NCBI GenBank assembly: GCA_964016885.1
Contig: OZ024742.1
Coordinates: forward strand, 37,758,001 to 37,822,000
Length of the DNA stretch: 64,000 nucleotides
Direction: 5' to 3'
Source: Eledone cirrhosa
Lineage: Eukaryota
Below the pieces are notes generated by a model. That model worked only from the letters and a program-made list of their open reading frames with translations, searched no databases and was not told where the DNA came from. Position 1 is the stretch's first letter. Each line of letters starts with the position of its first letter. The translations under genes were made by a program, and so were the position numbers. Positions 3,604 through 50,979 of this stretch are shown one piece after another.

Positions 3604-3810
3604 ATGTAGAAGTTATATTTAATTTGTTGGGATACAACAAGCAAATATTTTTATAACTGATATAAAGCACTCTTTAAGGGTATGACAATATTTGTTTATA
3701 AAACTGATCTATATTATATTTTATCTGATGAAAGCGCACCATAATTTGCTTTGGTGTCCTTGAAATATGTATAATGAAATAAATATGGTTTCCATTTGTT
3801 AATATATTGT
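3604..3810 (+). mobile_element. Penelope-like pLTR fragment (family P1) with hammerhead motif
   Basis: Homologous to 40981-41360 and followed by (TA)n. Contains CTGATGA...GAAA. Confidence 0.65.
3709..3788 (+). ncRNA. Minimal type-I hammerhead ribozyme
   Basis: Stem I ctatattatattttat/atgaaataaatatgg; CTGATGA 3725-3731; stem II aagcgcacca/tggtgtcctt; GAAA 3762-3765; near-palindromic stem III; AUA triplet 3771-3773. Confidence 0.7.
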
Positions 3811-4139
3811 ATATATATATATATATGGTGGCTGCCAACTCGTTTTCGAGTACGGCCACTACTTTATATCCATGTAGGAGAACCCCTACCAATGCGCTGA
3901 ACGAGTGTGACTTTTTAGTCCAGCCAGAGACTTGAAAACTCTGGTACAAACACTACACTTGTGACAATTATTGACACATAGTGCTGGGCCCATGGTACCA
4001 TGTGACGACAAGTGCAGAGAGATCTCCAGATATAAAGCAATGCCTGTGCTGTGAAGCTTTTATAGTGAGCAAAGGCACTGCACAAAGCCAGTCCCACTCT
4101 CTTAACCAAGATGATATTTACCAAAAAGAAGAACAATTC

Positions 4140-8139: not shown

Positions 8140-8326
8140 TAATTGTTTCTACTTTTGGCACAAGGCCATCAATTATCCCAGTGCATTACTGGTACTTTAT
8201 TTTATCGACCTCGTAAGGATGAAAGGCAAAGTCAACCTCGGCGGGATTTGAACTCAGATCGTAAAGGGGCGTAACTATGCTGGAAAGCATGGTGTCTGAC
8301 CCTCTACCAATACTGCCAATCCACCG
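8140..8326 (-). mobile_element. SINE family S1
   Basis: Full-length reverse-complement copy, head-to-head with the RTE starting at 8327. Confidence 0.85.
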
Positions 8327-10573
8327 ATAATAACAGAAAGAGTTATAGCACAGTTGATTAGGGACCGGGTGAAACTAGATGAGATGCAATTTGGGTTTGT
8401 ACCAGGAAGAGGCACCACTGATGCCCTCTTCCTTGTGAGGCAGTTACAGGAAAAGTACCTAGCTAAAAGTAAGCCACTCTACCTGGCATTCGTTGATCTT
8501 GAGAAAGCCTTTGACAGAGTTCCACGTGCTGTAATCTGGTGGGCTCTTAGAAAACTAGGAGTAGATGAATGGCTTGTGAAAGCGGTACAAGCCATGTATA
8601 GGGGAGCAGTCAGCAAAGTTAGGATTAGCAATGAGTATAGCGAGGAATTTAGCGTACAGGTTGGGGTCCACCAAGGCTCTGTTCTTAGCCCCCTCCTGTT
8701 CATCATAGTCCTGCAGGCAATAACGGAGGAGTTTAAGACCGGATGCCCATGGGAACTCCTGTATGCTGATGACCTCGCACTTATAGCTGAATCTATGGTA
8801 GAACTAGAGAAGAAATTCCAAACTTGGAAGCAGGGACTAGAAAGAAAGGGTCTCAAAGTCAACATGACAAAGACTAAGGTCCTTGTAAGTAGACGAGAAG
8901 ACAGAACCCAGATCCCCTCAGGGAAATAGCCTTGCTCAGTATGTAGGAAAGGTGTAGGTAGGAACTCCATTCTCTGCCCCAAATGCAAACAATGGGTACA
9001 CAAGAGATGTAGCGAGATCTCAGGGAGCTTAATTATGAATGTAGGCTTCACATGCAGCAGCTGTGCTGGGACAGCAAGCAGCAAACAGCCACAGGAAACA
9101 AGTACCACCAATCTCTGGGAGGGCTCTGTAGAAACAGTAGACAGCTTCTGCTACCTAGGTGACCGAATTAGCAGCGGAGGTGGGTGTTCAGAAAGTACAA
9201 TAACTAGGGTAAGAACGGGATGGAAGAAGTTTAAGGAACTACTACCACTGCTAGCTGCAAAAGGCTTCTCCCTCAAAATGAAAGGCAGACTGTATGATGC
9301 GTGTATCCAAACAGCGATGTTGCATGGTAGTGAGACCTGGGCGCTGAAGGTGGAAGACTTACGTAGATTAGAGAGAAATGAAGCCTGCATGCTCCGATGG
9401 ATGTGTAATAGTAATATACGCGAACGACAAAGCATAAATGAATTGAGAGAGAGACTGAGCATAAGAGGAATCAAATGCTGTGTGCAGGAGAGGCGGTTGC
9501 GTTGGTTTGGACATGTGATGCGTATGAAGGATGACAGCTGCATAAAAAGGTGCGGAGCACTAGAAGTCGATGGAAACCGCGGAGTGGGCAGACCCAAGAA
9601 GACCTGGGATGAGGTGATAAAAGCCGATCTTACCCAATTACACCTCTCAAAGGCGATGACACACGACCGTATCCACTGGCGTCATGCAGTAATACAGAGT
9701 ACCTGACCTCCCATGGGTACAAGTTGAAGCATATAGACAATATGCCCCCACACCCCCACTGCAAGGTGGTCGTGGAGGTGCCACGGCAAAAAAGCACCCA
9801 GCCAACACTGTAAAGTGTACGTGTAGGCGCCACGAAAAAGCAACCACAAACAAGAAACTGAGGTGCAGTATAAAGGCAAATAGATGCTGTTGGCTCAGCA
9901 AATCCCTCACAATTATTTACATGTCATTTTCAAAATTTTGCATAAAATTAAAGGATGGTTATAATATATTTAATTATAATTATAACTATGTTCATCAAAT
10001 TATAGTATGCAAGGGATAGCTGTATGTGTGAGTGTGTATATATATATATTGAAAGCACAATTGCTGCAGTTTGGTCATTTAAAAAAATGATTTTTCAAAT
10101 TTCCTTATTAGATCTTTATGTTTAGTTTGCAAGTATGAAGAATCGTAAACAAAAACGATCAAAGTGGAGCACAATTGTGTTTCCAATATAACATGTTTAA
10201 AAGAATAGCTATTCCACATATATATATATATATATATATATGGAATAGCTATTTTTTGTTTAACTCTTAAATATATATATATATATATATTCCAGTTTAC
10301 TCAGCTGTAGAAATGAGATGATAAGGACTGGGGTCCCTATCATTCCACTGCAAAGTGGTCGTGGAGGTGCCACGGCAAAAAAGCACCCAGCACTCACTGT
10401 AAATGAGGTTGGTGTTAGGAAGGGCATCCAGCTGTAGAAATCAAGCCAAATCAGTTCCTGTATGAGCAAGGCATGGTCAGCCGACCAGACACTGCCCACA
10501 ACAGGAGAACCCGTCTAACCCATGCTAGCATGGAAGAACGGACGTAAAACGGTGATGATGATGATGATGATGA
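8327..10573 (+). mobile_element. 5'-truncated RTE-clade LINE (family A), RT pseudogene with 3'UTR and (GAT)n tail
   Basis: ORFs 8354-8929 and 9035-9706 are in the same frame, split by TAG in place of the W of GKWPC. RT motifs QFGF, FVDLEKAFDRV, GVHQGSVLSP, YADD and the RTE C-terminal RRLRWFGHV...GRPKKTW are present. The 3'UTR is interrupted at about 9847-10456 by a copied segment. Confidence 0.93.
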
Positions 10574-12019: not shown

Positions 12020-12550
12020 TGGGTAATATGTTTTTTTATGTTGTGTTGTATGGACTAGACGACATGATGTACAGCATCATGTCATCCAGGTGGATAGTTT
12101 AGGAGTTTAAAGTTTAGAGATGCTGGGAGAAGTTGGAGCATGGCCTATTATGTAATGGGGTTATAGTCGCTGCAGATAATAATAACTTTATTATATAGAA
12201 ACTGCATAATATGACAGCTGTGGTTTGATAACGTCTGTCTTCCCCTTTTGGTGGCTGGTGCAGTCCTATTTGGTTTGCTGGATTTGAGAAAGTAGGCAGG
12301 CCGCATTCAGTTTGCCAAATTTGAAGGATGCATTATGGGTTGGTTGAGCAGGAGCCATGAGTACATGTTGGCATTCGGTTTAGGGTGTTTACATACTGAT
12401 TGGAACCATAATGGCTTTATTTACATATATAGATATTCTTTCATTGTCACAATTAAATGGCTGAAAACAGTAAAATAATGAAAGAATATCTATATATGTA
12501 AATAAAGCCATTATGGTTCCAATCAGTATGTAAACACCCTAAACCGAATG
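12020..12550 (-). mobile_element. Degenerate Penelope-like 3' fragment with a 74-bp perfect inverted repeat
   Basis: Arms 12372-12445 and 12477-12550. The adjacent minus strand ends ...NFKLLNYPPG*, reminiscent of PLE ORF C-termini. Confidence 0.45.
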
Positions 12551-24630: not shown

Positions 24631-25950
24631 TCATCATCATCAACGTTTAACGTCCGTGTTCCACGCTTGCATGGGTTTGGACGGGGGTTTTCCCACTTGA
24701 GGCAAGAGTGATTGTCTTGCTCGCATAGGACTGTCTGGCAGGTTTTCTACAGTTGGATGCCCTTCCTAACACCAACCACATTTACAGTGTGGGTCTGGGA
24801 GGTTTTTACCGTGTTGCCTACACGGCCACATTACAGCGTGGACTGTGTGTTTTTTGTCGTGACACCTACACGATCTCATTTGTTTCGGCCTGGATGGTGT
24901 GGCACCAACATAACTTTACATAGAACGGGGTGGTGTGGATGGGGTGGGGGTGGGGGTGGTGGCGGGACGGGGTGTAGTTTGTTAGAGATGCCTACTGGCA
25001 AGGCGGGTCTTCTCTGTTACTGAGTGCCGCCAAAGGTCTCGGTCCAGTGACATTGTCTTGGAGAGGTGTAAGTGTGTGAGGTCGGAGATTATCAGCTCGT
25101 CCCAGGTTTTTCTGGGTCTGCCTATTCCGTGGCTACCGTCTATCTTTATTGCCCTGCACTTTGTTATACAGCTATCGTCCTTCATGCGCATCACGTGACC
25201 ATACCAACGTAGCCTTCTCTCGAGTAGACAACATCTGATCCCTCTTATTTCTAATTTTTTTTTCCTTAGTTCGTTTATGCTTTGTCGTTCACGTATATTA
25301 CTATTACACATCCAGCGGAGCATGCAAGCTTCGTTTCTCTCTAGTCTGCGTATATCTTCTGCACACAATGCCCAGGTCTCACTGCCATGCAACATTGCTG
25401 TTCGTATGCAGGCATCGTACAACCTGCCTTTCATTTTTAGGGAGAACCCTTTAGCGGCTAATAGTGGTATAAGCTCTCTGAACTTTTTCCATCCAGTTCT
25501 GACTCTAGCTACTGTACTTTCAGAGCACCCTCCCCCACTGCTGATTTTGTCACCCAGGTAACGGAAGCTGTCCACTATTTCTATAGAACCCTCTGCGCAG
25601 CTGAAAGAGCTAGTATTTTGTGGGCACTTGCTGCTACTTATTGCGCCAGAACACCGGCCACATGTAAAATCTATGTTCTTAGTTAGCTTACCTGTGATCC
25701 CACTACATCTTTTATGCACCCAAACTTTGCATTTGGGACACAAAATGGAGTTTCTACCTACGCCTTTCCTACACTCTGCGCATGGCCACTTCCCGGAGGG
25801 GACCGCCGCCTTATTTTCTTTCGACAAACTAGAACTTTAGTCTTAGCCAGGTTAATTTTAAGGCCTTTTGATTCTAGGCCGTGCTTCCATGTTTGGAATT
25901 TCTTCTCTAGCTCGGCCATTGATTCAGCTATGAGCGTTAGATCATCATCA
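24631..25950 (-). mobile_element. 5'-truncated RTE LINE (family C)
   Basis: ORF 24982-25827 (GKWPCAECRKG...FRYLG...RRLRWYGHV), its own 3'UTR and (GAT)n tail. Truncated at the YADD codons. Confidence 0.92.
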
Positions 25951-25960
25951 TATATATATA

Positions 25961-26092: not shown

Positions 26093-26127
26093 ATTATATA
26101 TATATATTATATATATATATATATATA
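25951..26127. repeat. Long (TA)n microsatellite
   Basis: Seen directly in the sequence. Confidence 0.95.
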
Positions 26128-26700
26128 TTGTTATACTTGGGGAGGGTCATATTTGTGTAATATTGCCAGAATTAATAACAGAACACACTCACTGTTTGGT
26201 TGGTTTTCGCTTCTGTGTCTTTTATATCGGTAATCTAATATACTCGGTCCTCAATGTTGCCATTGACTGACCGACGGTCAAAAATAATACAGATACAATA
26301 TAGACACAAACACATATATATAGTTTATCATAAATCTTTCGTTGCACATCTGCAACATCGTCAGTGGCGCTATTGTGTCCTCCTGTTGAATTGTATGGCT
26401 ACGCCATTTTTATTCAGTCTGTCTATATATTTATTTATTTATTTGCTTGTTTATTTATTTTATTTTGTCTTCTTTGTGCATGCGTTTGCGTGTGTGTATA
26501 GTGTTTTGTTTGATGTGTGATGTGTGTTCGTGATTGGGTGACTAATGTGTGTTTATGTGTTTGTTGTTATTGTGCTTGTGTATGTATTTATTTATTTTAT
26601 TTTATTTTATTTACTTATTTATACTTCTCTTAGGTCAGTGTTGTTTGTTTGGGTGTTGTTATTCCATTCATTCTTTCTGTATAGAACTTAGAATACCAAG
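26128..26700 (-). mobile_element. Penelope-like 3' fragment (family P2) with a short 5' inversion
   Basis: Homologous to 41897-42455 (NRKNEW codons to the 3' end). 26681-26700 (ATAGAACTTAGAATACCAAG) is the adjacent upstream piece in the opposite orientation. A hammerhead-like CTGACGA...GAAA lies at 26337-26364. Confidence 0.75.
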
Positions 26701-27915
26701 ATGAAAGCACACTTTCCGGGAATCAGTCCTTACTACTGGGATACGCGCGATTTTTCCACCAAAACGAAATGCACGAGGAGCTTCTCTTCACTCTGAATCT
26801 AGCCACAGATACTAAAGGTGCCACGATCTTTGAATCTGTCAAGGGATACCTCGAAGAAAAAGAGATACCTCTTAATAATATTGTATCATGTGCTACGGAC
26901 GGCGCAAGAGCAATGGTCGGCCAACATAAGGGTTTCGTCTCTCTTCTGAAGAGGGAAAATCCATCTGTATTTGCTGTTAATTGTGTCATTCATCGACAAC
27001 ACTTGGCTGCGAAGAAACTCAGCAAGCCGCTGAGCAAGTTCTTGCAGGTAGCCATTGATGTCATCAATTATATCAAACGCCATGCCCTCAATGAACAAAT
27101 TTTCTGGCAACTGTGCGAAGATAATGACGAAGAATTCGTCGAGTTGCTCCTTCATACTGAAGTGAGGTGGCTTTCAAAGGGCAAGTGCCTTACTCGCTTC
27201 TTTAAACTGTTCGACTCTATCATTGAGTTTCTTCAAGGACGCAACACAGAACTATATAAAAAAAACCTCGATGTGAGGCAAGACTGTGCCTACCTCGCCG
27301 ACATCTTTGACAAATGCAATAGTCTCATTATGGCTTTGCAGGGGGAGAAGATCACCTTGTTTAAAGCAAGGAATGCTGTGAAAATATTCCTGGCCAAATT
27401 GAAAGTCATCGAAAGGAATCTTTGTTGACGGGAATTCTATAATTTTCCTAGTGTCGCCAATGTTCAAAACATTGTGAGCGATGACCAACTGCAAATTTAT
27501 ACCGTGCACCTCCGTGCACTACAAGACAACACGAGAGAATGGTTTGTCAACCTTTTGCAGATGGACATCCCAATGTGGATAGCAGATCCCTTCATAGCCA
27601 ACGTCGACGATTTCGACGTTAAATTTCAGGAAGAATTTATTGAAATTCAGACAGATGACATTATCAAAATGAAATTTTCCAAAATAGGTGAACTCCTTTT
27701 TTGGATGCAAGAGGAAATTCAGCGTCGATTTCCACTCCTACATGCAGAGGCTAAGAGATTTGCTTTGCCTTTTCCTAACTCATACTTAGTCGAGAGGGGG
27801 TTTGGCGTTGTTTCCAGACTGCATAGTAAGGCTCGCAACCGCTACAATGTCAAAGAGTTAACTAAACTGACGTCAAAGAGTTAGCTAAACTCCATGAAGC
27901 TCAAGGGTCCCATTG
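26701..27915 (+). pseudogene. hAT transposase remnant (Charlie/ZBED5-like catalytic and dimerization regions)
   Basis: ORFs 26769-27428 and 27474-27884 carry SCATDGARAMVG, CVIHRQHLAAK, LLLHTEVRWLSKG and LPFPNSYLVERGF, with an internal stop and no N-terminus. Confidence 0.9.
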
Positions 27916-39829: not shown

Positions 39830-40330
39830 AGCAGGCTATGTAGTAAAGTCTTTTAGAATTAAAGGAAGTTGTTATTGCCCAGCATCTATTTGACCCAGCA
39901 GTTTCATAGCCAACAGCTACAAGAGCAAAGGAGATGTACTGGAAAGAGATATTTACAGTTTGGCAACAAAGGTATAAGTCAGGAAGCATGTTTGAGGAAA
40001 ATGATGTTTAGCAGCAAGATGTTGGCATGGAAAGTAAAAGAACAGCAGGGGCAGAAGAGAAATGAGCTGAGTACAATCCTTTAGATGTGTAACATCAGTA
40101 TTCATAAAAGGTAGAGCATCAATAAAGAGAGCAGCTAAGTATTAAATATCTTGACTAATGAATGCAGCAGAGACAATTGTGTTGGTATGGACAATGGGTG
40201 AAAAAGTGCTGTGAACTTTCAATGAAAAGTACTTGTGGTAGAAGAAATACTAGTGAGGATATAGGAAAAAATGAAGGGGACAGATCTCAGAATAAAGTGC
40301 CTAATAAACAAGATGACAAAACATCAAGAT
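39830..40330 (+). mobile_element. Old degenerate RTE RT 3' fragment
   Basis: Remnant QQRQLCWYGQWVKKCCE...CGRR (ORF 40162-40377). Confidence 0.6.
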
Positions 40331-40728
40331 ATGTGTCAATATACTGTACAATCCATTCAATCAAAATCAACACTTAAAAGAAAAACTATGTTATAATGCT
40401 GATGATAATATAATTTTTAAATTATTTAAGTGCCTATTAAATATCTATTTTAAAACAAAAATTAAATAGGGAAAAGAAAAAGAACTGAAAAATAACTATT
40501 TTCATTTCAGGAATCATCAAATTATAAATAAATATATTAATTGAGAAGTATTTAGACTATAGCTACATTTAAATACAAACAAACAAATTAGTAAATTAAA
40601 AGGATTAATTAATAGCTGATGTGAAGAGCAGGCAGCAATATTAAAAATAACAAGGGGATGATTAAATAAGATAGTGAGAGAAGGAAGAGGAAGTGGAAGA
40701 GGAGAAGGAGGAAGACATTATTTCTTAC

Positions 40729-40791
40729 GTTTTTTCTTAAGTCTATCTAAGGTACGCTCTCGTTCTAGAGGGCGGTTATTGCTGACATCCC
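40729..40791 (-). CDS. PPFIBP: Coding exon (63 nt, symmetric phase 1-1): (G)DVSNNRPLERERTLDRLKKK
   Basis: Minus strand ...tttgctttgtttcag|GGGATG...AAAAAAC|gtaaga. The frame is open in the phase set by the upstream exon, and the length is divisible by 3. Confidence 0.75.
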
Positions 40792-40946
40792 CTGAAACAA
40801 AGCAAATAAACAAACAAGTGAAATTCACTCTTAATACAAGAGTAAACAGAATGAAGAAAAACGCTTATATGACAAATAAAATACAAATTAACAAAATGTT
40901 CTTTGTTAAAAAAATTTTTTCCTAGAAAGTCATGAATAATTTCCTT

Positions 40947-40980
<34 letters not shown>

Positions 40981-40986
<6 letters not shown>

Positions 40987-41360
40987 GATATTAATAAATG
41001 GAAACTATATTTATAAAACCATATTTATTTCATTATATATATTTCAAGGATACCAAGTTACATTATGGTATGCCTTCATCAGACAAAATACAATATATAA
41101 CAGTTTTATAAATAGACATTGACGTACCCCTTTAAAAATTGACCGTTGCCTTTGGAGGCCATCAGGATATCCTGATGGCCTCCAAAAGCAACGTAACTTG
41201 GTATCCTTGAAATATATATAATGAAATAAATATGGTTTTATAAATATAGTTTCCATTTATTAATATCGTATATCTACTCCAAATATTTGTCGAGTGTTTT
41301 ATATCAGTTATAAAAATATTTGCTTGTTGTATCCCAACAATTTAAATAAAACTTTTGCAT
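40981..41360. mobile_element. Palindromic Penelope-like pLTR remnant (family P1)
   Basis: 81-bp arms at 40981-41061 and 41193-41273, an inner palindrome at 41144-41193 centred on GATATC, and homology to 3604-3810. Confidence 0.7.
41019..41098 (-). ncRNA. Minimal type-I hammerhead ribozyme (P1)
   Basis: Minus strand tattgtattttgt CTGATGA aggcatacca..tggtatcctt GAAA tatata TA^ atgaaataaata. Confidence 0.7.
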
Positions 41361-41370
41361 ATATATATAT

Positions 41371-42455
41371 ACGTTTTGCGAGGTTTTTTATATGAAATCG
41401 TGTGTTGAAACAAATATTGTTATACTTGGGGAGGGTCATATTTGTGTAATATTGCCAGAATTAATAACAGAACACACTCACTGTTTGGCTGATTTTCGCT
41501 TCTGTGTCTTTTATATCGGTTAATTTAATTTATTTGGTCCTCAATGTTGCCATTGACCCACCAACAGTCAAAAATACAGATACAATATAGACACAAACAC
41601 ATATATATAGTCTATCAAAGTTCTTTCGTTGCACATTTGCAACATCGTCAGTGTTGCTATTATGTTTCCTCCGATTGCATTGTATGCTTATGCCATCTTT
41701 ATTTAGTCTGTTTATTTATTTTCTTTTTTTCTGTCTTCTCTGCGCATGCGTTCAGTACTATACGAACATGCCAGACAACAACACAATGGTAACATAGACA
41801 ACATAGAAGTTAGAATAATATCTAAACATAGAAATGACCCAGCAGATAGGCAAATCAGAGAAGCCAGCGAAATAGAACTTAGAAGGCCAAGGCTAAACAG
41901 AAAAAATGAATGGAATAACAACAACACCCAAACAAACAACAGTGACCTAAAAGAAGTATAAATAGATAGATAAATAAATAAATAGATAAATACATACACA
42001 AGCACAATAACAACAAACACATATAAACACACACTAGTAAACTAAGATAGAATACATTAACCAATACACAGTCACCCAAACAAGAACACACATCAAACAA
42101 AACACTATACGCAAACGCATGCGCAGAGAAGACAAAAAAATAAACAAATAAATAAATAAATAAATAGACTAAATAAAGATGGCGTAAGCATACAATGCAA
42201 CGGGAGGAAACATAATAGCAATGTTGACGATGTTGCAGATGCGAAAGAACATTGATAGACTATATATATGTGTTTGTGTCTATATTGTATCTGTATTTTT
42301 GACCGTTGGTCAGTCAATGGCAACATTGAGGACCGAATAAATAAAATTAACCAATATAAAAGACACAGAAGCGAAAACCAACCAAACAGTGAGTGTGTTC
42401 TGTTATTAATTCTGGCAATATTACACAAATATGACCCTCCCCAAGCATAACAATA
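41371..42455 (+). mobile_element. 5'-truncated Penelope-like element (P2): GIY-YIG C-terminus plus pLTR, preceded by an inverted pLTR
   Basis: ORF 41746-41961 SVLYEHARQQH...IISKH...RQIREASEIELRRPRLNRKNEW is a PLE endonuclease C-terminal signature. About 41415-41750 is an inverted copy of about 42115-42455. Confidence 0.8.
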
Positions 42456-42463
42456 TATATATC

Positions 42464-43519
42464 TATAGAAATCACATGAATCAAAGTTCTGTTCAAACCA
42501 TTTATCAGCTTACAATTGTTTCGTCCAAACCGAGGTTTGGAGTCTTCGGAGCAATTTTTCAATGATTGTTTACATACATGACCTCCTTTCCAACACAAGA
42601 GACATACAGAAACATATGTATATATTGATACACAGTGGGGTGACATCCATTATAATATTTTAGCATGGCAATTTAAATTCAAAAATTAAAATCATATTAA
42701 AACAAAATTAAAACAAAATTAAAACAAAATTAAAGTTAAAATACAACATCGGCAGTTTACGAAGATAATGCAAGGGGATAGTTTGAAGTAGTTAGTGTAT
42801 GCAATAGTTACACGTGGGGCATGCACGTGTGTCTTATTTATATAAGATTATTGTGCGGCAAGGTGTTATATGTAATACAAGCACTTTAAGCGGGTAATCA
42901 AGAGTATTATGGAGGTTGTATTGGTAAAGGATTTTTTATGTATGATAAAGAAGCCTGTGTGCAGAGAAATATTAAAAATGAGATACAAATGAGATACAAA
43001 AACCATAACATTATTTTGCTTCTCATTTTTAATATTTCTCTGCACACAAGCTTCTTTATCATACATAAAAAATCCTTTACCAATACAACCCCCCATAATA
43101 CTCTTGATTACCCGCTTAAAGTGCTTGTATTACATATAACACCTTGCCGCACAATAATCTTATATAAATAAGACACACGTGCATGCCCCACGTGTAACTA
43201 TTGCATACACTAACTACTTCAAACTATCCCCTTGCATTATCTTCGTAAACTGCCGATGTTGTATTTTAACTTTAATTTTGTTTTAATATGATTTTAATTT
43301 TTGAATTTAAATTGCCATGCAAAAATATTATAATGGATGTCACCCCACTGTGTATCAATATATACATATGTTTCTGTATGTCTCTTGTGTTGGAAAGGAG
43401 GTCATGTATGTAAACAATCATTGAAAAATTGCTCCGAAGACTCCAAACCTCGGTTTGGACGAAACAATTGTAAGCTAATAAATGGTTTGAACAGAACTTT
43501 GATTCATGTGATTTCTATA
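42464..43519. mobile_element. ~1.05-kb near-perfect palindrome, Penelope-like pLTR pair (P3) with hammerhead variant
   Basis: Arms 42464-42983 and 43021-43519 with a 37-bp spacer. Confidence 0.75.
43416..43488 (+). ncRNA. Hammerhead variant with CCGAAGA core (mirror copy on the - strand at about 42495-42567)
   Basis: gct CCGAAGA(43434-43440) c-tccaaac-ctcg-gtttgga-c GAAA caattg TA^ agc. Stem III is the palindrome ACAATTGT. Confidence 0.6.
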
Positions 43520-43837
43520 TAACTGCTCTGTAGAACTGATGTTATTACATTGAGCTATTTATCTTACTGGTAATAAGGTAGTAATATATTACTGTCTTTC
43601 ACTGTTTAGGGTTTAAAATATATATAACTATAAAAAGTTTTAGTATATACATAACCATAAATAGTATCCTTAATACTATATATATATATAAATTTTAATT
43701 TATATAATGATATGAGTATTTAACTTACATACTGAAAATATAGCTCAAAAGGAAAATCTTCCTCATTTTACTTCATTACTAGAATATCAAACTATTATTT
43801 TTATTGATAACATCTCTCTCACACACACACACATATA

Positions 43838-44632
43838 AAATATGAGGAAATAATAGACAAAAATATGCCTATTTTTTCTTCAAAGTCCCGACTGCAGTTT
43901 CGCCGATCCGTGTGCACCGATTTCTGCGCTTTAAAAGTACATCATCGCTGTGAGGTTGATACGGCTCATCAAGAGACCACTCAGAAAAATGGACTGTTTC
44001 CTGACGCGTTTATAGCAAGTGTGAAAGTCAGAGGCGGAGGGAGAGATTAACAAGTGATATAGTGGTAAAAAAAAAAAAGGATTATTTCTTTTGTAGCAAG
44101 TGAGAATTTCTCGGGAGGCGAGGAGAGAGATAAACACATGATACAGTGGTCTCAGAAGGGTTGTAAGGTGGACAGTGAGTGAATAACGTATTTGCTAGAA
44201 AAATCAGTTAATACACTCGTTAACTCGTACTCCCCTATGGTCAAGTTAACCACGAGTGTATTAACTGCTTTTTCTAGCAAATACGTTATTCACACACTGT
44301 CCACCTTACAACCCTTCTGAGACCACTGTATCATGTGTTTATCTCTCTCTTCGCCTCCCAAGAAATTCTCACTTGCTACAAAAGAAACAATCCTTTTTTT
44401 TTTACCACTATATCACTTGTTAATCTCTCCCTCCGCCTCTGACTTTCACACTTGCTATAAACGCGTCAGGAAACAGTCCATTTTTCTGAGTGGTCTCTTG
44501 ATGAGCCGTATCAACCTCACAGCGATGATGCACTTTTAAAGCGCAGAAATCGGTGCACACGGATCGGCGAAACTGCAGTCGGGACTTTGAAGAAAAAATA
44601 GGTATATTTTTGTCTATTATTTCCTCATATTT
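43838..44632. mobile_element. ~0.8-kb near-perfect palindrome, Penelope-like pLTR pair (P4) with hammerhead variant
   Basis: Arms 43838-44220 and 44252-44632. Confidence 0.75.
44481..44598 (+). ncRNA. Hammerhead variant with 64-nt stem II (mirror copy on the - strand at about 43872-43989)
   Basis: ggtctc TTGATGA(44498-44504) gccg-tatc...gatc-ggc GAAA(44569-44572) ctgcag TC^ gggact. Stem III is the palindrome ACTGCAGT and the triplet is GUC. Confidence 0.65.
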
Positions 44633-44780
44633 CGTAATTTGATAAATAGCTCTGATTATGGAGTTGATTTAATTATTTTAGTTATTTTAACTCTCTCGGT
44701 CATCGAGCAACACTTGTTAAGGCGGACACCACACACACACACACACATATACATATGAATATGTGTGTGTATTTCATTAT

Positions 44781-44845
<65 letters not shown>

Positions 44846-48501: not shown

Positions 48502-48536
<35 letters not shown>
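48241..48536. repeat. Compound (TA)n/(CA)n microsatellite
   Basis: Seen directly in the sequence. Confidence 0.95.
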
Positions 48537-49587
48537 CGAGGAATTTAGCGTACAGGTTGGTGTCCACTAGGGCTCTGTTCTTAGCCCTCTCCTGTTCATC
48601 ATAGTCCTGCAGGCAATAACGGAGGAGTTTAAGACAGGATGCCCATGGGAACTCCTGTATGCTGATGACCTCGCACTTATAGCTGAATCTATGGTAGAAC
48701 TAGATAAGAAATTCCAAACTTGGAAGCAGGGACTAGAAAGAAAGGGTCTCAAAGTCAACCTGACAAAGACAAAGGTCCTTGTAAGTAGACTAGAAAACAA
48801 AACCCAGATCCCCTCAGTGAAATGGCCTTGCTCAGTATGTAGGAAAGGTGTAGGTAGGAACTCCATTCTCTGCCTCAAATGCAAACAATGAGTACACAAG
48901 AGATGTAGCGGGATCTCAGGAAGCTTAATTAAGAATGTAGACTTCACATGTAGCAGCTGTGCTGGGACAGAAAGCAGCAAACAGCCACAGGAAACAAGTA
49001 CCACCAATCTCTGGGAGGGCTCTGTAGAAACAGTAGACAGCTTCTGCTACCTAGGTGACCAAATTAGCAGCGGAGGTGGGTGTTCAGAAAGTACAATAAC
49101 TAGGGTAAGAACGGGATGAAAGAAGTTCAGGGAACTACTGCCATTGCAAAAGGCTTTTCCCTCAAAATGAAAGGCAGACTGTATGATGCGTGTATCCGAA
49201 CAGCAATGTTACATGGTAGTGAGACCTGGGCGCTGAAGGTGGAAGACTACACGTAGATTAGAAAGAAATGAAGCCTGCATGCTCCGATGGATGTGTAATA
49301 GTAATATACGTGAACAGCAAAGCATAGATGAATTGAGAGAGAGACTGAGCATAAGAGGAATCAAATGCTGTGTGCAGGAGAGACGGTTGTGTTGGTATGG
49401 ACATGTGACGCGTATGAAGGATGACAGCTGCATAAAAAGGTGCAGAGCACTAGAAGTCATTGGAAACTGTGGAGTGGGGAGACCCAAGAAGACCTGGGAT
49501 GAGGTGATAAAAGCCGACCTTACCCAATTACACCTCTCAAAGGCGATGACACACGACCGTGACCTCTGGCGTAACGCAGTAATACAG
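48537..49587 (+). mobile_element. RTE LINE family A internal fragment (truncated at both ends)
   Basis: Closely matches 8641-9698, with stops and frameshifts. Confidence 0.92.
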
Positions 49588-50153: not shown

Positions 50154-50979
50154 ATAAATCAGCAAAGAAGAGTGACACGGTTTGCTATACAAAAAAGGTT
50201 TTTAATCTCATTGCTGACAATTGTTTTTCTGAACTGGTAAGTCTAGAGATCGCTACCCGCTTGTTTTCACGTCATTCGATCACCAATACATAGTTATAAC
50301 CAGTCAATTCATCGGAGCTTGTGAGAATGAAAGGAATATACAGGCATGGCTACTATATATAGTAGTAACGGCATTCAATCAGAACAATAACAACAATGCT
50401 AGCAATAAATTATTTGAAATAATCACAACATCAATCTAGGTAAGAAACATAGTATATCTACGACTTTAGCGTGTAAAACTAGCTGACATGAGGCAGATGT
50501 ATAAAATTGACATGTAAAAGCTGTCATGGGGTGTATTATATATAGTGTAGAGATAAGCCGGTGGCTTTAAACAATGAACCATTTCCTTTACTGAAGGTCT
50601 GGTGACCGTAAGAATTATTTATTATCTGACAGATGAAATATTTATCACTGTAGTAAGGATAGTAATATTTGTGGTGTGAGGTGGGTTCAATATTTATGTG
50701 GTCTATGTTTCTTACCCAGATTGATGTTGTGATTATTTCAAATAATATATTGTTAGCATTGTTAGTATTGTTGTTATTGTTCTGATTGAATGCCATTACT
50801 ACTATATATAGTAGCCATGCCTCATTCTCACAAGCTCCGATGAATTGACTGGTTACAACTATGTATTGGTGATCGAATGACGTGAAAACAAGTGGGTAGT
50901 TCAGAAAAACAATTGTCAGCAATGAGATTAAAAACCTTTTCTGTATAGCAAACCGTGTCACTCTTCTTTCCTGATTTAT
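50154..50979. repeat. Long inverted repeat (arms 50154-50452 and 50703-50979), probably another Penelope-like remnant
   Basis: The arms are reverse complements with a few indels. Only degenerate hammerhead-like cores are present. Confidence 0.7.

What the first reader, a model, noticed from the sequence alone, without database searches (positions are those of the whole stretch)
40981..44632. 3.7-kb pile-up of four unrelated palindromic, hammerhead-bearing Penelope-like remnants next to an exon
Seen: four consecutive inverted-repeat structures of different sequence, with arms of about 80, 340, 500 and 380 bp (40981-41273, 41415-42455, 42464-43519, 43838-44632), mostly joined by (TA)n. Each carries a hammerhead-like core, and one retains a GIY-YIG C-terminus. 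The cluster begins about 190 bp upstream (in transcript sense) of the acceptor of the 63-nt exon. Inference: this is an insertion hotspot (TA microsatellite or cruciform-driven breaks attracting PLEs). Because of the palindromy, the host pre-mRNA carries a sense-strand ribozyme from each family, while the complementary arm could mask it in P2-P4.
Basis: partly seen in the sequence, partly recalled or inferred. Interest (0 to 1): 0.75.

Follow-up and report, generated by a model that had tools for sequence, protein, structure and literature searches.

The report
Penelope stumps piled in TA microsatellite
Four mirror-image stumps of different Penelope-like jumping genes sit side by side in TA repeats, likely inserted one after another; such stacks are common in this genome, and their predicted self-cutting RNA motifs are likely masked in the host transcript, so this is ordinary.

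Summary
The four palindromes and their hammerhead-like cores are real. Each belongs to a dispersed family whose other copies also end in (TA)n, and 34 of 110 carry their own inverted arm. P2 is the end of a Neptune-like element; P1 and P3 trace to Hydra-like endonuclease genes; P4 is a non-coding head-to-tail unit (retrozyme-like). The spacers are mostly the elements' own tails. Arm divergence (0, 0.8, 1.9, 8.9%) points to four separate events. In 1.2 Mb of random genome I found 107 palindromes and 130 hammerhead-family insertions, 129 of them within 250 bp of (TA)n. They cluster more than uniform placement predicts but within what TA-site targeting predicts: 13 pairs, 8 triples, no run of four. 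A four-palindrome chain is the tail of a genome-wide pattern (roughly 10-170 expected), not a special hotspot. Host-RNA cleavage is unlikely: the antisense arm is transcribed first and covers all four cut sites, P1 included, and only P1 has a canonical core. One regularity stands out: 31 of 34 other palindromes, and all four here, have a tail on exactly one arm. The scan reported such pile-ups and this asymmetry before on other DNA of this genome.

The parts
40729..40791 (-). 63-nt candidate host exon (DVSNNRPLERERTLDRLKKK in frame 2); host gene not identified
   Evidence: splice signals; no Pfam match; no RNA holder listed
40953..40985 (.). (TA)16, left remnant of the first target microsatellite
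40984..41168 (-). P1 left arm, untailed; 3' 185 nt of a Hydra-like family; 100% identical to many copies
41034..41082 (-). P1 type I hammerhead motif, canonical CUGAUGA/GAAA/AUA core, palindromic short stem III
41167..41358 (+). P1 right arm (82-nt internal deletion removes the 5' half of the motif) plus tail 41274-41358
41372..41752 (-). P2 left arm with tail (41372-41413); carries family-type motif CUGACGA + extra U at 41618-41651
41752..42456 (+). P2 right copy, untailed: GIY-YIG C-terminus (41752-41958), 3' region and pseudo-LTR ending in the next ORF start MTLP..; motif degenerate
42464..42996 (-). P3 left arm, untailed; motif CCGAAGA (U4C, C10.1) at 42511-42549
42997..43676 (+). P3 right arm plus tail (43520-43676); 3' end of a Hydra-like family
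43677..43837 (.). (TA)7, about 120 bp of non-repeated DNA, then a CT/CA/TA microsatellite (second target)
43838..44235 (-). P4 left arm, untailed; motif UUGAUGA (U3.G8; family majority U3-A8) at 43890-43972
44236..44780 (+). P4 right arm plus tail (44633-44780); about 550-nt non-coding head-to-tail unit
44781..44834 (.). (TA)27, right remnant of the second target

Best explanation
The stretch is a stack of four short ends of different Penelope-like elements, each with its own inverted arm, likely inserted at different times into two neighbouring microsatellites by the TA-directed nicking and priming of these elements. Shown: four dispersed families, (TA)n at their ends, one tailed and one untailed arm each, different arm divergences, and frequent pairs and triples elsewhere. 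Inferred: each insertion leaves (TA)n on both sides, which keeps the site a target; each palindrome forms in one event in which both cut strands prime a cDNA at one of two start sites and the two cDNAs are joined at their inner ends; the order is P2, P4, P3, P1. In a host pre-mRNA the antisense arm is made first and is predicted to pair over every cut site, so the motifs are likely inert passengers.
For: Families: 1388, 3253, 3595 and 652 first-look candidates. Ends in (TA)n or tail then (TA)n. Inverted arm at 34 of 110 other loci with variable fold points. Coding parents: RT + CxxxxxCxxC + GIY-YIG contiguous with P2; Hydra-type EN about 1.6 kb upstream of P3 in 3 loci and about 1.9 kb upstream of P1 in L121, with 2 more loci by coordinates. 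Arm differences P1 0/77, P3 4/478, P4 7/378, P2 29/325. Random 1.2 Mb: 107 palindromes, 130 insertions, 129 of 130 within 250 bp of (TA)n against 35% of random windows; chains 80/13/8/0. Predicted pairing of motif bases to the earlier arm: 31/61, 36/46, 51/51, 95/95. Literature: inverted 5'-truncated copy, one-sided tail and (TA)n bias (PMC8557442); two RT start sites bounding the tail (PMC11167929); single minimal motif inactive, U3-A8 and extra-nucleotide variants (PMC4209133).
Against: No run of four was seen in 1.2 Mb, so the expected number (about 2,800 chains of four; 8-175 all palindromic) is an extrapolation. The equal-weight TA null still leaves a small excess at gaps under 600 bp (27 vs 19.6, p=0.03), and both TA nulls are partly circular because insertions lengthen TA tracts. 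Pfam scores of the parent proteins are below the curated cut-offs (RVT_1 E=0.008, GIY-YIG E=0.02, none for P1's parent). No coding parent was found for P4. No contig bridged the junctions. Folding is a prediction and no RNA data were available.
Confidence: 0.85

Rival explanations
1. A true local hotspot: the first palindrome extrudes as a cruciform, breaks, and draws later insertions beyond what TA content explains.
For: Short gaps exceed uniform placement and slightly exceed the equal-weight TA null (p=0.03); all four members are palindromic where 23-50% per family would be expected.
Against: No element is inserted in another's hairpin centre; all junctions are at (TA)n, as at single copies elsewhere. 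The length-weighted TA null over-predicts clustering. Many clusters in the random sample involve non-palindromic members.
Confidence: 0.1
2. The motifs cut the host pre-mRNA and modulate the gene next to the 63-nt exon.
For: One sense motif per family lies on the minus strand; P1's core is canonical and unmutated.
Against: The antisense arm precedes each motif and is predicted to cover each cut site; P2-P4 cores deviate; the four stems III differ, so no partner for a dimer is present; isolated motifs fold no better than shuffles (z -1.05 to 0.03); similar motifs occur about every 9 kb.
Confidence: 0.04
3. The palindromes are fold-back artefacts of sequencing or assembly.
For: No contig of the listed runs spans the stretch (short contigs, a hole proves nothing).
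Against: Arms differ by up to 8.9% and by indels, one arm has a tail and the other not, P1 has an internal deletion, and each structure ends at family-specific points.
Confidence: 0.01

Closest known systems
EN+ Penelope-like element insertions with inverted 5'-truncated copy and tail (Craig et al. 2021, PMC8557442; passages and section 11 read)
   Same: Inverted 5'-truncated arm, tail at one end, (TA)n targets, hammerhead motif in the pseudo-LTR.
   Different: Tails here are 40-155 nt rather than 30-40; only short ends remain; four families are stacked.
Hydra clade of C-terminal EN+ PLEs (PMC8557442 section 11)
   Same: Parents of P1 and P3 have CxCX5C linker, no CCHH, CxxC and CxH around E/N, and (TA)n insertion.
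   Different: 3' regions of 1.5-1.9 kb; RT-side motifs (RWK, DKT) not seen or tested; P3's motif is non-canonical.
Neptune clade PLEs (clade features as given in PMC8557442)
   Same: P2's parent: RT, CX2-5CxxC linker, C-terminal GIY-YIG with cysteines and histidines.
   Different: No tree was built; Neptune versus Nematis rests on the linker motif alone.
Animal non-LTR retrozymes (PMC7229834 passages; bioRxiv 10.64898/2026.07.22.740005 part 1 of 5 and passages)
   Same: P4 is a non-coding head-to-tail unit with a type I motif.
   Different: About 550 nt (longer than the 170-400 nt reported), U3-A8 core, mostly 1-1.5 units, no RNA shown.
Minimal PLE hammerheads (Cervera and de la Pena 2014, PMC4209133; parts 1-2 of 4 read)
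   Same: Short palindromic stem III, extra base after A9 (P2), U3-A8 covariation (P4 family).
   Different: P3's family majority has U4C and C10.1; P4's window copies have U3.G8.

Membership tests
EN+ Penelope-like elements | RT followed by C-terminal GIY-YIG EN in the parent | tested here: met
   P2: one frame with YVDD, linker and EN, 65/69 to the window fragment. P3: EN plus upstream RT-thumb-like frame. P1: EN only. Pfam scores below cut-off.
EN+ Penelope-like elements | Fixed 3' end, variable 5' truncation, inverted arm, optional tail | tested here: met
   all four families
EN+ Penelope-like elements | Hammerhead motif in the pseudo-LTR | tested here: met
   by descriptor and alignment; no Rfam match
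EN+ Penelope-like elements | RT phylogeny with PLE clades | not tested
Hydra clade (P1, P3) | CxCX5C linker, no CCHH, CxxC and CxH near E/N | tested here: met
   CNCRSNRTC...CNLC...CQH in L125; CNCRNKSDC...CDLC and CRH after a frame break in L121
Hydra clade (P1, P3) | RWK and DKT motifs, divergent RT4 | not tested
   no copy with the RT core was fetched
Neptune clade (P2) | CX2-5CxxC linker upstream of GIY-YIG | tested here: met
   CTNRKCIIC in L127, L128; shared with Nematis, so not decisive
Non-LTR retrozyme (P4) | Non-coding head-to-tail units with type I hammerhead | tested here: met
   tail joined to unit start in 15 of 28 other copies; no linked ORF
Non-LTR retrozyme (P4) | Self-cleaved linear and circular RNA | not testable with these tools
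   no RNA run listed (searched with the host flank)
Active hammerhead ribozyme | Canonical core C3 U4 G5 A6 N7 G8 A9, G12 A13 A14, NUH | tested here: inconclusive
   met by P1; P2 has weak stems I and III and a CUU site; P3 U4C; P4 U3.G8
Foldback/MITE DNA transposons | Fixed internal length with identical termini in all copies | tested here: not met
   76 of 110 other loci show no second arm within the fetched flank, and fold points vary

The most novel reading that the evidence does not exclude
PLE palindromes obey a strict one-tail rule across Neptune-like, Hydra-like and non-coding families (35 of 38 with exactly one tailed arm, none with two) because a dimeric enzyme primes both strands of a nicked (TA)n, one at each of the two RT start sites, and joins the two cDNAs by microhomology; stacked copies like these would be a dated record of that twin-priming route.
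Probability: 0.45. Interest if true: 0.55.

Novelty: new member of a known kind. Interest (0 to 1): 0.2.

Why it matters
As a locus it matters little: it is the upper tail of a pattern that covers about 5% of this genome. It is a compact example of how TA-targeting retroelements build stacks, and it shows why such insertions can be tolerated in introns: the geometry puts the antisense arm first. The one-tail rule is a testable clue to how PLEs make inverted ends, which PMC8557442 names as an open question.

Tried and rejected
Rfam scan: only low-complexity miRNA hits, no hammerhead. Independent data: no RNA holder listed; contigs were too short to bridge junctions or show an empty site; a contig of a second organism covers 40300-40912 and none of the 17 listed of its 24 differences falls in 40680-40831, a weak hint for the exon only. 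A-to-G editing marks (lead e1-10323346): no excess in the six window arms tested. Arm homogenisation in P4: 13 variants shared by both arms, but 11 occur in other copies, so subfamily structure may suffice; a 31-mer with three of them occurs only in the two arms; left open. The EN next to P4 in L129 belongs to another abutting family. Host gene: no Pfam match above cut-off, Atlas gave no result, no PDB match. Four paper searches listed no paper that counts PLE stacks or tail asymmetry; supplements were not read.

Full report
Observation. Self-comparison confirms four inverted repeats at the stated places. Hammerhead-like cores are present in all four by descriptor and alignment, though Rfam finds none. 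The same descriptor gives 71 hits in 1.2 Mb of random genome against 2 in 0.6 Mb of shuffled sequence. The EN fragment at 41752-41958 is 65/69 identical to the end of an RT-EN frame elsewhere. A 63-nt exon-like segment lies 193 bp from P1 on the minus strand; it is not confirmed by RNA and the gene is unnamed.

Families. Each palindrome belongs to a dispersed family (40 best candidates scored per search, 30 loci fetched each, so the loci are biased to close and long copies). Other copies share a fixed outer end followed by (TA)n, or by a family-specific tail and then (TA)n. After dropping self and duplicate loci, 34 of 110 have an inverted arm: P1 13/27, P2 5/29, P3 11/26, P4 5/28, with variable fold points. 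This is the PLE architecture in PMC8557442 (passages). The spacers in the window are these tails, so P1-P2-P3 fill one (TA)n tract wall to wall, and P4 sits in a second microsatellite about 120 bp away.

Parents. P2 continues upstream into RT, a CxxxxxCxxC linker and GIY-YIG: Neptune-like. P3 continues to an EN with CxCX5C, CxxC and CxH motifs in three loci, matching the Hydra definition (section 11). P1 is linked to a similar EN in L121 and by coordinates in two more loci. Pfam scores for these frames are below cut-off, so the clade calls rest on motifs. In P4 the tail runs straight into the unit start in 15 of 28 other copies and no ORF is linked: a non-coding, retrozyme-like unit.

Ages. 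Arm-to-arm differences are P1 0/77, P3 4/478, P4 7/378, P2 29/325; P1 has 40 matches at 100% over 162 nt, the window's own included. Four events at different times are inferred, P2 first and P1 last. P4's arms are closer to each other than to the family majority (13 shared variants, 11 seen in other copies), so its age is less certain.

Is the cluster special? I drew 120 random 10-kb stretches from 22 contigs that hold 2.71 of 3.0 Gb. 129 of 130 lie within 250 bp of (TA)n, against 35% of random windows. Gaps under 600 bp number 27, against 8.2 under uniform placement (0 of 2000 simulations), 19.6 if TA tracts are chosen equally (p=0.03) and 40.8 if chosen by length. Neighbouring pairs are of many family combinations with (TA)n between. 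Chains with gaps up to 700 bp: 80 singles, 13 pairs, 8 triples, none of four. Extrapolation gives about 2,800 chains of four and 8-175 with all four palindromic. So clustering is real, but TA targeting roughly accounts for it.

Ribozymes and the host. On the minus strand each family has one motif. P1 is canonical. P2 has an extra U after A9 and weak stems; P3's family majority is CCGAAGA with C10.1; P4's majority is U3-A8, while both window arms have U3.G8. U3-A8 and the extra base are known PLE variants, and a single minimal motif showed no cleavage in vitro (PMC4209133). Because the arms point outwards, a read-through transcript makes the antisense arm first. Predicted folds pair 31/61, 36/46, 51/51 and 95/95 motif bases to that arm, including the cut site of P1. 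Cleavage of the host RNA is therefore unlikely, though untested.

How the palindromes form. All four here and 31 of 34 elsewhere have a tail on exactly one arm, 3 have none and none has two (p about 1e-6 against independence). I counted this after reading note e1-8668198; PMC8557442 already says the tail is often at one end only. Both P1 arms start at the same base (-186), inside a cluster of 5' ends (13 of 27 at -170 to -193, partly favoured by the query length), and join over a 2-base TA overlap. With two RT start sites bounding the tail and extension on both strands in vitro (PMC11167929 passages), twin priming is the likeliest route; snap-back copying with EN resolution is not excluded. 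P3 and P2 show no sharp 5' cluster.

Verdict. Real, correctly recognised as Penelope-like, but ordinary for this genome, where the scan has logged similar stacks. New members of known kinds; interest 0.2.

Noticed in passing
window 18129-19986: Four 466-bp tandem units, 99.7% alike, each with a canonical CUGAUGA/GAAA motif: a young retrozyme-like array; the family has 20 motif hits in 1.2 Mb.
   Followed up: partly
window 3604-3826 and 26114-26684: Older single copies of the P1 and P2 families; the P2 copy abuts a 180-bp (TA)n and a transposase-like frame at 26685-27884 (hAT-like, label recalled).
   Followed up: partly
L131 1326-1457, minus strand (1.3 kb beyond the window end): 132-nt exon-like segment encoding a coiled coil that resembles liprin-beta (recalled, not confirmed); possibly the same host gene as the 63-nt exon.
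   Followed up: partly
window 43838-44632: P4 arms share 13 departures from the family majority, yet the best other copy is only 93% identical; diverse source copies or conversion between arms are both open.
   Followed up: partly
L129 3881-8126: A palindrome of another Neptune-like family abuts a P4 copy across (TA)n; L122 holds two copies of the same family near P1.
   Followed up: partly
L235 3705-6225: 310-bp tandem unit with canonical motif arranged as a palindrome (2 units one way, 7 the other).
   Followed up: no
window 8300-9846, 13151-14824, 20023-22818, 24982-25952, 48533-49587: Several RTE-like LINE pieces (label recalled), one with a 931-aa open frame; further palindromes at 12372-12550 and 50154-50979.
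   Followed up: no
P3 family: The family majority has U4C and a C10.1.C11.1 mismatch yet the family spread recently, which suggests that cleavage is dispensable for its spread.
   Followed up: no
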